From a virus (lineage: Duplodnaviria > Caudoviricetes), in the IMG/VR virus record IMGVR_UViG_3300029171_000002, positions 1-64,000 of that record: a stretch of DNA of 64,000 nt; one strand, written 5' to 3'. Under the pieces are notes generated by a model. That model made no database searches. It saw only the letters and a list, made by a program, of their open reading frames with translations, and was not told where the DNA came from. Numbering within the stretch: the first letter of the stretch is position 1; each line of letters starts with the position of its first letter. Positions 30,075 to 55,936 of the stretch are shown in pieces. The translations under genes were made by a program, and so were the position numbers.

Positions 30075-31865
30075 TTACAGAGTGGGAACGCTGGTGATAC
30101 GGAAGTTAAGGCGAGGGTTACTCACAACCAAGTTCCCCGCAAAGAAATACTGACCCGCAACATCGTCGGTATTCTGGGCTTCCTTAAATCCAGAGAAGCC
30201 GAACTGGTATCGCTCCAGCGTGCTCACGTACAGAGCAAAGTTCTCGCGCCGAGTATTCAGACCGTACATCTCGCCTGAAGGTGCGTACTGGTCGACAACG
30301 ACTGAAGCACTATTAAATTTGAAGCTGGAGAATCCTGCCTTAGCTACGTCAGAGCTCTCTTCGTGGAACCGCTGCATTGGCTGCAGTTTGCTCCAGAATT
30401 GATCCCAAACGTTCTGCCGTCCAGCAATCAAATCCACATGCTCGTTTCCGAACCATGCGCTTCCATACGCCTTCTGCACACCGGTCAAACTGAAACCGGT
30501 AGAGAATGAAGCCACGTAACCGTTAATGCCGCTTGAAACGGTTCCGTTTGCTACGCCCAAATCGCTTCTGGTGATCCCACCATAGCTTGCGTAGTTTGAT
30601 CCATGATCGACAGCGGCCTGCAAGCCGTCGAGTTGAAGCGTTCCAGAGTTGGTGCCCTGTCCGTCAAGATACATGTCGGTTGCGAGCAATTTGCCCATCT
30701 TGCCGGCAGCGTTGTTCAGCTTGGCAGAGACATGGGAGAAAGCTGCTTCCGGGCCACGGTTCAAGACAGAGTCGGGTCCATAGACTGTCACGTTTACGTA
30801 GTAGAACTTGATCGCAAACTGCAACGCCGAATCAGTTGTGACTCGGGTTGTGTCGAAAGTTCCACCAGGGGCATACGCGCCGCCATTTAATTCTGCCCAT
30901 TGTATGGGGACCAGGATACGATTACCGCCCTCGAAGCGAGCGACGTTATTCGTCCGAGCCCTGACAAAAACAGCAGAACTTTTGTAGCTAGAATCCTACG
31001 GCTTGAGGCGCACCGTAGCTTGGGCCATCACTCATCAGGACTGATTCTGATCGTTCGGGGTTGGTCTCTGCACGTGCGGCTTCAAGTTCGAGCAGGCGTT
31101 GTCGCCAACGCTCTTGCTTGTTGAGGATACGGGGAGGGGTAGCAATACCTGTGGCTCTGCGCTCACGCCAATGCTTTGAAGTCGTGTTGAACAACCTCAA
31201 GAGTTCTGCTTCCTCGTGACGAAACGTCATGTACCGTTTCGCAGTCGTAGCATTTGAACTCGCTTCAGCGCCTTGACTCAGCCACGATAGTTTGTGGCCT
31301 TTCAAGATAGTGCCGCCAAATTCCTTTTTGATAAAAGGCAAGGCGGAAACATCGATGCCGATCAAAAGCCCCAGAGCTGGTTCGCAAAAGCCATCAGGGA
31401 ATGATTCGACACAGAACACACCACAAGCTTCCAGGACACCGGCGAGATAAGCATCTTTGGCCCGAGACTTCCGAACCATCGACCGCTCTCGGGCTTCGAG
31501 CTTCAACTCTTGGACTTTTATACCATTGAGGTGATAGATGACAAGATTTTGCTCTCGCTCAAGAGTCCCGCCAAAAAGACCCTGGATTCGCTTCAAAGGT
31601 TTTGCTTGATTAAACTTTACGGTAAGAGTGTCTCCGGCAAAACTGGGGGATGCAGCATCCAGAAAGCCAGTGACATAACCGAGTATCGTTTCCCTATCCA
31701 TATCTGCCGCTTCGTCAGGGTAGCCGTCTTAGACATGTGTCCAAGTGCCGGGCGTTCCCTGGATTACCGAACGTTTATACACCGCCTACAGTTAACGGTG
31801 TCTACCAACACTGGAACGATGAAATCGCGGGTTTTTCCGTTGATATCCGTCCAGGTTAGAGCCAT
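30075..31865 (-). CDS. Major capsid protein, spliced: exon 1 31865-31795, exon 2 30987-30075 (327 aa)
   Basis: AGGAG RBS, ATG 31865; joined frame MALTWTDINGKTRDFIVPVLVDT-V-YKSSAVFVRARTNN...; 71+913=984 nt; HK97-type P22-like coat pattern; follows scaffold. Confidence 0.85.
30988..31701 (-). CDS. Intron-encoded double-motif LAGLIDADG protein, apparently catalytically degenerate
   Basis: YVTGFLDAAS and YLAGVLEACG motifs; starts in the P6a loop. Confidence 0.75.
   Translation of the reverse strand: MDRETILGYVTGFLDAASPSFAGDTLTVKFNQAKPLKRIQGLFGGTLEREQNLVIYHLNGIKVQELKLEARERSMVRKSRAKDAYLAGVLEACGVFCVESFPDGFCEPALGLLIGIDVSALPFIKKEFGGTILKGHKLSWLSQGAEASSNATTAKRYMTFRHEEAELLRLFNTTSKHWRERRATGIATPPRILNKQERWRQRLLELEAARAETNPERSESVLMSDGPSYGAPQAVGF
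30988..31794 (-). mobile_element. Group I self-splicing intron, 807 nt
   Basis: P1 CACCGU/GCGGUG with U.G at the splice site; P10 UGUAG/CUACA; P3 CGUUCGG/CCGAACG; P4 CAGGG/CCCUG; P6 ACG/CGU; P6a GCGGC/GCCGC; P7 G(A)GACCA/UGGCCC; P8 AUCAG/CUGAU; P9 CUACGG/CCGUAG; terminal G. Confidence 0.9.
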
Positions 31866-32030
31866 TGGTAAAGTCTCCTAAGAAAATGTCCAGCAAGTTC
31901 CGATGTTGGCGGTTTCGCCTTCCTCGTGCTGGCCATCTCCTTCCCTGCGTGAGCAGGGGTCCGGAGGCTGGCAAGGTTGAAGGGTCCGGTCGATAACTCG
32001 GGCCAGTGCGGGGTTACATTACAGCGTCAA

Positions 32031-33585: not shown

Positions 33586-33660
33586 TGGTTGCGGGTCCTG
33601 GATTCGAACCAGGGATCTCTAGGTTATGAGCCTAGCGGAGTTCCTCTTTCCTAACCCGCC
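33586..33660 (-). tRNA. tRNA-Met(CAT), initiator-like, CCA encoded
   Basis: GGCGGGT...CTAGG-CTCATAA-CCTAG...CCTGG-TTCGAAT-CCAGG-ACCCGCA-A-CCA. Confidence 0.9.
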
Positions 33661-55861: not shown

Positions 55862-55936
55862 GCCGAGATAACTCAGAGGTAGAGTGCTGGCCTGAAAAAC
55901 CAGTGGTCGCCAGTTCAATTCTGGCTCTCGGCACCA
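55862..55936 (+). tRNA. tRNA-Phe(GAA), CCA encoded
   Basis: GCCGAGA...ACTC/GAGT, CTGGC-CTGAAAA-ACCAG, GCCAG-TTCAATT-CTGGC, TCTCGGC-A-CCA. Confidence 0.9.

What the first reader, a model, noticed from the sequence alone, without database searches (positions are those of the whole stretch)
30988..31794. Group I intron interrupting the major capsid protein gene
Seen: exon 1 ends CACCGU, which pairs with intron GCGGUG (31785-31780) with U.G at the splice site. Intron UGUAG (31790-31786) pairs with exon 2 CUACA. P3 is 31773-67 with 31058-52, P4 is 31761-57 with 31720-16, and P6/P6a, P7 (31068-62 with 31027-22), P8 and P9 are all present, ending in G at 30988. Splicing restores a 327-aa frame, whereas unspliced mRNA stops after 33 codons. 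Known: phage group I introns mostly sit in DNA-metabolism genes and carry HNH or GIY-YIG ORFs. Inference: production of the most abundant virion protein depends on splicing, a possible timing control. Automated annotation would report a truncated capsid.
Basis: partly seen in the sequence, partly recalled or inferred. Interest (0 to 1): 0.8.

Follow-up and report, generated by a model that had tools for sequence, protein, structure and literature searches.

The report
Group I intron splitting phage capsid gene
An 807-base self-splicing-type (group I) intron carrying a crippled homing-endonuclease gene interrupts the major capsid gene of an uncultured phage after codon 24; it is real and well supported by comparison with related introns, but capsid-gene introns of this kind have been described before.

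Summary
On the minus strand the major capsid gene is split into exon 1 (31865-31795) and exon 2 (30987-30075) by 807 nt (31794-30988). Joining them gives a 327-aa protein collinear, without a gap, with uninterrupted 320-328-aa homologs. Rfam's group I model finds nothing, probably because a 714-nt ORF sits in the P6 loop.

The decisive evidence is comparative. A homologous intron lies at the identical site in another phage's capsid gene (L039), and related introns lie at other sites of the same gene (L042, L043, L046, L041). Across them P1, P10, P3, P7, P8 and P9 keep pairing while their sequences change.

It is a LAGLIDADG-fold protein that lacks both catalytic acids and about 85 residues. 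It reads through the ribozyme's 3' core, and its stop codon UAG ends on the terminal G.

Splicing itself could not be tested, and timing control is speculation. Precedents exist (mycobacteriophage LittleE, Tuc2009, crAss-like MCP genes), so this is a new member of a known kind. Other first-stage notes on this same stretch of DNA made the same reading.

The parts
31875..31879 (-). Shine-Dalgarno AGGAG, 9 nt upstream of the capsid ATG
   Evidence: sequence read
31795..31865 (-). Capsid exon 1: 23 codons plus 2 nt (MALTWTDINGKTRDFIVPVLVDT, then GT of the Val-24 codon). Its last 7 nt, ACACCGU, form the exon strand of P1.
   Evidence: Collinear with the N-termini of uninterrupted homologs P0002-P0030.
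30988..31794 (-). Group I intron, 807 nt. It follows an exon-final U and ends in G30988.
31779..31790 (-). Internal guide sequence: P10 strand UGUAG (31790-31786) directly 5' of P1 strand GCGGUGU (31785-31779)
   Evidence: The guide covaries with the exon sequence in L039, L042, L043 and L041d.
31706..31773 (-). 5' core: P3 5' strand (31773-31767), J3/4 UAAUC, P4 CAGGG (31761-31757), J4/5 AA, P5 hairpin, P4' CCCUG (31720-31716), P6 5' strand GCGGC (31710-31706)
   Evidence: (P4 invariant in 7 of 7 members)
30988..31701 (-). Intron ORF, 237 aa, a degenerate LAGLIDADG protein. Motif 1 is GFLDAAS, with A17 at the catalytic position. Motif 2 is GVLEACG, with C93 at the catalytic position. It starts 4 nt after the P6 5' strand, reads through P6'-P7-P3'-P8-P7'-P9, and its stop codon UAG is the last 3 nt of the intron.
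30988..31080 (-). 3' core: P6' (31080-31076), J6/7 ACGU, P7 5' strand (31068-31062, A31067 bulged), P3' (31058-31052), P8 (31051-31034), J8/7 GAGUGA (31033-31028), P7' (31027-31022), P9 (31018-30996), tail GAUUCUAG ending in the terminal G
   Evidence: 77.3 bits to the family model, which was built with this sequence included
30075..30987 (-). Capsid exon 2 (303 codons plus stop). It begins CUACA, the P10 partner.
   Evidence: phrog_9953 major head protein, E 2.9e-34, profile positions 36-327 of 329

Best explanation
This is a genuine group I intron of a family that has colonised the 5' part of the capsid gene in an uncultured phage lineage.

Inferred mechanism, following the established group I pathway:
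- The capsid pre-mRNA folds so that the last 7 nt of exon 1 pair with the internal guide (P1, with U.G at the cleavage site).
- An external guanosine bound in P7 attacks after U31795.
- The adjacent guide segment then holds exon 2 (P10), the terminal G30988 enters the P7 site, and the exons are ligated.
- The product is an mRNA for the full 327-aa capsid protein.

The intron ORF descends from a two-motif LAGLIDADG homing endonuclease that once drove insertion at the conserved VYKSS site. In this copy both catalytic acids and about 85 residues are lost. The intron is therefore most likely no longer mobile. It persists because precise loss is rare and splicing keeps the capsid gene working.

Shown: the boundaries, the restored frame, the helices and their covariation, and the ORF's homology and fold. 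Inferred: that splicing happens and is efficient, that the ORF is nuclease-dead, and that the intron is immobile.
For: 1. Precise excision restores a capsid protein collinear with 320-328-aa homologs. The junction lies in the conserved motif D-x-V-Y-K-S-S. In the tblastn survey of 38 related loci none shows an insertion at this site and 28 give one collinear match.
2. The splice-site rules are met: U.G at the end of a 7-bp P1, a P10 guide contiguous with the P1 guide, and a terminal G.
3. L039 carries a homologous intron at the identical site. Compensatory changes against the window:
   - P1: ACACCGU/GCGGUGU in the window, ACGUCGU/GCGACGU in L039.
   - P3: CGUUCGG/CCGAACG in the window, GAUUCGG/CCGAAUC in L039.
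   - P6, P7 and P8 also change on both strands.
4. Family members at other sites of the capsid gene (L042, L043, L041b, L041c, L041d) have guides complementary to their own exons, and P3 is 7/7 bp in 6 of 7 members with different sequences.
5. P7/P8/P9 are 95.8% paired, 10 of 17 pairs are compensatory, and 0 of 500 shuffles reach this. P4 is invariant.
6. A model built from the 3' cores finds the independent member L046 at 81 bits.
7. An ORF-deleted construct folds into P1, P3, P4, P6 and P9.
8. The ORF matches LAGLIDADG_1-bearing proteins (E 7.9e-15). Five of 6 family ORFs hit PF00961. The predicted fold matches E-DreI, I-AniI and the bI3 maturase. Both catalytic positions are A17 and C93, where relatives have E.
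9. Spliced capsid-gene group I introns exist in phages (PMC3706429; PMC7886860).
Against: - Rfam RF00028 gives no hit at gathering score or at E <= 10, on the whole region or on either half. It also misses the canonical-looking L039, and gives only about 22 bits on three interruptions of related capsid genes (L001, L031, L034; one is the ORF-less L041b). This weakens that negative.
- P7 has an A.C mismatch next to the presumed G-binding pair, though L042 and L043 share it.
- This copy lacks the P9.1/P9.2 hairpins and the GUAACA tail seen in other members.
- The record is a metagenomic virus contig estimated 82% complete, so viability is unproven.
Confidence: 0.88

Rival explanations
1. It is a group I intron by descent but no longer splices: a decayed element that has turned the capsid gene into a pseudogene in a defective or non-viable phage variant.
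For: - The ORF is degenerate: both catalytic acids are lost and about 85 residues are deleted.
- The P9.1/P9.2 hairpins are missing.
- P7 holds an A.C mismatch.
- The Rfam model gives no hit.
- The record is only a metagenomic contig.
Against: - Every core helix is intact.
- Differences from L039 are compensated on both strands, which implies continued selection for pairing.
- The A.C mismatch is shared by L042 and L043, which carry intact-looking endonuclease genes.
- Both exons keep an open, conserved frame and an AGGAG ribosome-binding site.
Confidence: 0.07
2. The intron is functional and its ORF has become a maturase. On this reading a nuclease-dead LAGLIDADG protein is needed to fold a ribozyme that has lost peripheral stabilising elements, so capsid synthesis depends on an intron-encoded protein. 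This is the only route by which the reader's 'timing control' could have substance.
For: - The ORF stays open for 237 codons despite losing both catalytic acids.
- The predicted fold matches LAGLIDADG proteins, including the bI3 maturase and the bifunctional I-AniI.
- This copy lacks the P9.1/P9.2 hairpins present in members with intact endonucleases.
Against: - There is a single sequence, so no test of purifying selection was possible.
- The N-terminal domain is modelled poorly (pLDDT below 50 for residues 19-63).
- There is no clear Shine-Dalgarno sequence before the ORF's AUG.
- An open frame may only reflect recent decay, or constraint from the overlapping ribozyme core.
Confidence: 0.12
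3. It is not an intron but a homing-endonuclease cassette insertion. The capsid would then be made as two polypeptides, or from an internal start in exon 2.
For: - Endonuclease insertions that split phage genes into separately translated parts are known in T4-type phages (from memory, not checked here).
- The automated gene call starts inside exon 2 (P0001).
Against: - Exon 1 would yield a 24-residue capsid fragment plus 9 junk codons.
- Exon 2 has no start codon or ribosome-binding site at its beginning.
- This reading does not explain the covarying P1, P10, P3, P7, P8 and P9.
- It does not explain the exact U|...G| boundaries at five further sites in L041.
Confidence: 0.02

Closest known systems
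Group I intron in the major capsid gene of mycobacteriophage LittleE (Pope et al. 2013, PMC3706429)
   Same: - It is an intron of about 800 bp (820 bp) in a phage major capsid gene.
- Exon 1 ends in U and the intron ends in G.
- It holds an ORF related to LAGLIDADG nucleases.
- The authors showed splicing by RT-PCR and N-terminal sequencing.
   Different: - The LittleE ORF lies on the opposite strand and is I-CreI-like with an HNH-like tail.
- No sequence relationship to the window's intron was tested here.
- The host phage lineage is different.
- Here the ORF is co-directional and overlaps the ribozyme core.
Group I introns in MCP genes of crAss-like phages, Delta and Zeta groups (Yutin et al. 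2021, PMC7886860)
   Same: - Uncultured phages carry group I introns in core genes including MCP.
- One MCP gene is split into five fragments.
- LAGLIDADG endonuclease/maturase ORFs are noted.
- Annotation is confounded in the same way.
   Different: - Those introns were recognised through protein domains, with no RNA structures given in the passages read.
- The capsid family is different: the closest isolate capsid here is Myxococcus phage Mx8 at 28.5% identity.
Rfam RF00028 Intron_gpI consensus core
   Same: - The P7 strand GCAGAGACCAA resembles the consensus CAaAGACUAA.
- J8/7-P7' GAGUGAUGGCC resembles AAGAUAUAGUC.
- The order of elements is canonical. The consensus lines are shown.
   Different: - There is no significant score.
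- There is no P2; J1/3 is 5 nt.
- There is no P7.1/P7.2.
- A 640-nt ORF occupies the P6 loop and runs on through the 3' core.
- The subgroup was not determined.
LAGLIDADG maturases and bifunctional enzymes (bI3 maturase 2ab5; I-AniI 1p8k/3eh8)
   Same: - The fold is a two-domain LAGLIDADG fold encoded inside a group I intron.
- Loss of catalytic acids, as reported for the bI3 maturase (from memory, not checked here).
   Different: - Maturase activity is untested.
- Sequence identity is only 9-13%.
- Those proteins are organellar, whereas this one is from a phage.

Membership tests
Group I intron | 5' exon ends in U, paired as a U.G wobble at the end of P1 formed with an internal guide sequence | tested here: met
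   ACACCGU/GCGGUGU, 7 bp. The guide covaries with the exon in L039, L042 and L043.
Group I intron | Intron ends in G (omega G), and a P10 pairing between the guide and the 3' exon | tested here: met
   G30988; UGUAG pairs with CUACA, contiguous with the P1 guide. The same arrangement holds with different sequences in L043 and L041d.
Group I intron | Conserved core P3-P4-P5-P6-P7-P3'-P8-P7'-P9 in this order, with a P3/P7 pseudoknot supported by covariation | tested here: met
   - P3 is 7/7 bp at a fixed offset in 6 of 7 members.
- P7/P8/P9 are 95.8% paired, with 10 of 17 pairs compensatory.
- P4 is invariant.
- The minimum-free-energy fold recovers P1, P3, P4, P6 and P9.
Group I intron | Guanosine-binding G-C pair in P7 next to a bulged nucleotide, with a flanking pair | tested here: inconclusive
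   The G31066-C31023 pair with bulged A31067 is present. The adjacent pair is A.C here and in L042 and L043, and A-U in four other members. The functional effect is unknown.
Group I intron | Match to the curated covariance model RF00028. This is a detection criterion, not a mechanistic feature. | tested here: not met
   No hit at gathering score or at E <= 10. L039 is also missed. Three other interruptions of related capsid genes (L001, L031, L034) score 22-23 bits against a threshold of 50.
Group I intron | GTP-dependent self-splicing, or ligated exons in RNA | not testable with these tools
LAGLIDADG homing endonuclease (PF00961) | Sequence homology and two LAGLIDADG helices | tested here: met
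   - phmmer gives E 7.9e-15 to P0122 and 2.3e-10 to P0123.
- The motifs align at G12-S18 and G88-G94.
- The window ORF itself has no Pfam hit, while 5 of 6 relatives hit PF00961.
LAGLIDADG homing endonuclease (PF00961) | LAGLIDADG alpha-beta fold | tested here: met
   The AF2 model has pLDDT 68 and pTM 0.66. Foldseek best TM-score (normalised to the query) is 0.67, to E-DreI, with 47 PDB matches at E <= 0.001 and LAGLIDADG proteins throughout the list shown. The N-terminal domain is of low confidence.
LAGLIDADG homing endonuclease (PF00961) | Catalytic acidic residue at the end of each motif | tested here: not met
   A17 and C93 stand where the relatives have E in DGEG and EAEG. It is therefore filed as a LAGLIDADG-fold relative, not as an active endonuclease.

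The most novel reading that the evidence does not exclude
The nuclease-dead LAGLIDADG ORF, translated through the ribozyme's own 3' core, has become an obligatory maturase for an intron that has shed its P9.1/P9.2 stabilisers. Production of the most abundant virion protein would then be gated by an intron-encoded protein. More broadly, one intron core has hopped between at least three sites of the same capsid gene by retargeting its guide sequence.
Probability: 0.12. Interest if true: 0.6.

Novelty: new member of a known kind. Interest (0 to 1): 0.38.

Why it matters
- Annotation: automated gene calling gives a 238-aa truncated capsid (P0001) and hides the true 327-aa protein. The same problem affects several relatives in public databases, whose capsid calls begin artificially at VYKSS or VDNVYKSS.
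- Biology: this adds a well-documented case of a group I intron in the gene for the most abundant virion protein, where splicing must be efficient.
- Comparative material: one ribozyme core occurs at several sites of one gene. Its LAGLIDADG ORF overlaps the catalytic core in a conserved frame (RAETNP...SDSP). Copies with intact and with degenerate endonucleases sit side by side. This would suit a study of intron retargeting, of conflict between the ORF and the ribozyme, and of the cycle of invasion, decay and loss of homing elements.
- It does not open a new category.

Tried and rejected
- Rfam cmscan gave no group I hit on the whole window at gathering score, on the region at E <= 10, or on the 3' and 5' halves alone. 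It also missed L039. I treat this as a limit of the model with ORF-bearing phage introns, not as evidence against.
- Pfam, PHROGs and PDB sequence searches with the intron ORF gave nothing. Homology appeared only through the large protein database.
- blastn of the locus against isolated phages gave no match.
- An exact 18-mer scan of metagenome contigs gave 56 hits, of which only 2 are real family members (L046, L091). The rest are chance matches.
- A search for a second intron of this family found none, in the window or in the whole 73-kb record.
- Intein: rejected, because a stop codon follows 9 codons into the insert.
- Group II intron: rejected, because of the boundaries UAAC...CUAG, the 807-nt size, and the helices of a group I core.
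- Translational bypass: rejected on distance.
- The family model R1 does not match the interruptions in L001, L002, L029, L032, L034 or L038. Those belong to other intron families or are too divergent.

Full report
**What is there**

The minus strand carries a head-gene block:
- a 280-aa gene of unknown function (32873-32031), lying where relatives also have a 280-310-aa gene just upstream of the capsid gene;
- a short ORF starting at ATG 31865, preceded by AGGAG;
- a 237-codon ORF (31701-30988);
- a long frame ending at 30075.

The long frame matches phrog_9953 'major head protein' (E 2.9e-34), but only from profile position 36. Joining 31865-31795 to 30987-30075 gives 327 aa.

More than 100 database homologs of 320-328 aa are uninterrupted. 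They begin MALTW(D/E)D...(V/I)YKSS, and the junction DTV|YKSS falls in that conserved motif with no gap. The record's own gene call is a 238-aa fragment (P0001). The window belongs to a 73,342-nt IMG/VR virus record estimated 82% complete. The nearest isolate capsid is Myxococcus phage Mx8, at 28.5% identity.

All are present at the stated coordinates:
- P1 (7 bp, U.G at the splice site), with the P10 guide lying directly 5' of the P1 guide;
- P3 (7 bp), P4 (5 bp), P6 (5 bp), P8 (5 bp), P9 (6 bp) and the terminal G30988.

P7 is Tetrahymena-like in layout: a G-C pair, a bulged A, a second G-C pair, then four more positions. One of those four is an A.C mismatch. An ORF-deleted construct folds by minimum free energy into exactly P1, P3, P4, P5, P6 and P9. 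P7 is pseudoknotted with P3, so that method cannot show it.

**Rfam**

RF00028 gives no hit at any threshold, on the whole region or on either half. It also misses the canonical-looking relative L039. Three other interruptions of related capsid genes (in L001, L031 and L034) score only 22-23 bits. The negative therefore carries little weight.

**Comparative evidence (decisive)**

The intron ORF has two distant homologs.

One of them, P0123, lies on L039. That contig holds a capsid gene with an intron at the identical site: exon 1 ends ...GACGUCGU and exon 2 starts CUACAAG. Compared with the window, P1 changes on both strands (ACGUCGU/GCGACGU). P3 does as well (GAUUCGG/CCGAAUC). P6, P7 and P8 also differ while keeping their pairing.

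A conserved 18-mer then found further members in capsid genes at other sites:
- L042, L043 and L046, after codon 15;
- three introns in L041.

The pattern across members:
- In WIN, L039, L042 and L043 the guide forms 7/7 bp with its own exon and ends in U.G. In L041d the pairing is shorter.
- Every intron whose 3' end was mapped ends in G.
- A P10 guide sits next to the P1 guide.
- P3 forms 7/7 bp at the same offset in 6 of 7 members, with seven different sequences.

On the 3' core alignment, RNAalifold predicts P8 and P9 with compensatory pairs. With P7 added, 95.8% of cells pair and 10 of 17 pairs show changes on both sides. No shuffle out of 500 reaches this, and slid controls give 25-42%. 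The A.C in P7 is shared by L042 and L043, so it is a family trait rather than decay. A covariance model built from these cores finds L046, which was not used to build it, at 81 bits. It finds only one site in the window.

**The ORF**

The ORF aligns over its full length with the 317-331-aa ORFs of the other members. Five of those six hit PF00961. The AF2 model (pLDDT 68) matches LAGLIDADG structures.

The window's copy differs in three ways:
- It has A17 and C93 where the relatives carry the catalytic Glu of DGEG and EAEG.
- It lacks about 85 residues.
- Its N-terminal domain is poorly modelled.

In every ORF-bearing member the reading frame continues through P7-P3'-P8-P7'-P9 in the same phase. 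The P7 strand encodes RAET and the J8/7-P7' segment encodes SDSP (SDGP in the window). In the window the ORF stops on the intron's last three bases. Relatives stop some 20-60 nt earlier, so that detail looks accidental. This copy also lacks the P9.1/P9.2 hairpins and the GUAACA tail of other members.

**Interpretation**

This is a bona fide group I intron whose homing endonuclease has decayed. Capsid production requires splicing. The intact, compensated core argues that splicing is still under selection.

Three things remain untested: whether splicing occurs, how efficient it is, and whether the ORF acts as a maturase. Nothing supports regulated timing.

**Novelty**

- Spliced group I introns in phage capsid genes are published for LittleE, which has a LAGLIDADG-like ORF; that paper also cites Tuc2009 (PMC3706429).
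- Multi-intron MCP genes are reported in crAss-like phages (PMC7886860).

This is therefore a new member of a known kind. Its value is comparative: one core at several sites of one gene, an overlap between the ORF and the ribozyme core, and intact and dead endonucleases side by side.

Two earlier first-stage notes on this same stretch (e1-5911235, e1-5911243) made the same reading. I reached it independently before seeing them.

Noticed in passing
L041:5923-9329 (IMGVR_UViG_3300036761_003996; the same phage again as L091): The capsid gene of a related phage carries five intervening sequences within its first 93 codons: 678, 181, 215, 281 and 1089 nt. Each follows an exon-final U and ends in G. 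Removing them restores a full collinear capsid ORF that includes a 27-nt mini-exon. Introns 3-5 share the window's core, and intron 1 matches the family model weakly.
   Followed up: partly
L029/L032 (aa ~291), L034 (aa ~155), L038 (aa ~90), L001 (after codon 6), L002 (codon 1-2): Other homologous capsid genes are interrupted at further sites. In L001 and L002 the insert holds a LAGLIDADG-motif ORF. These inserts do not match the family model R1. The L001 and L034 inserts get weak RF00028 hits. The 5' part of this capsid gene is a hotspot for several intron families.
   Followed up: partly
window 31764-31794 (minus strand): In the unspliced RNA the exon-1 frame reads through the P1 loop, the guide and the P3 5' strand, and stops at the UAA of J3/4. 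In L039, L042 and L043 an in-frame UAG lies inside the P1 loop. The window has a 1-nt shorter loop that shifts the frame past it. Ribosomes on unspliced RNA would therefore enter P3 here.
   Followed up: no
protein database entries P0025, P0028, P0029, P0041, P0050, P0066, P0086, P0090, P0091, P0094, P0096, P0104: Many public capsid gene calls of 301-304 aa start artificially at (M/V)YKSS or VDNVYKSS. For the two whose DNA was inspected (P0041 on L001, P0086 on L002), an upstream intron had cut off the true N-terminus. P0066 has a 529-nt ORF-free gap upstream, but no DNA was available.
   Followed up: partly
window 33589-33660 (-) and 55862-55933 (+): There are two tRNA genes in the window. 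One lies just upstream of the head-gene block.
   Followed up: no
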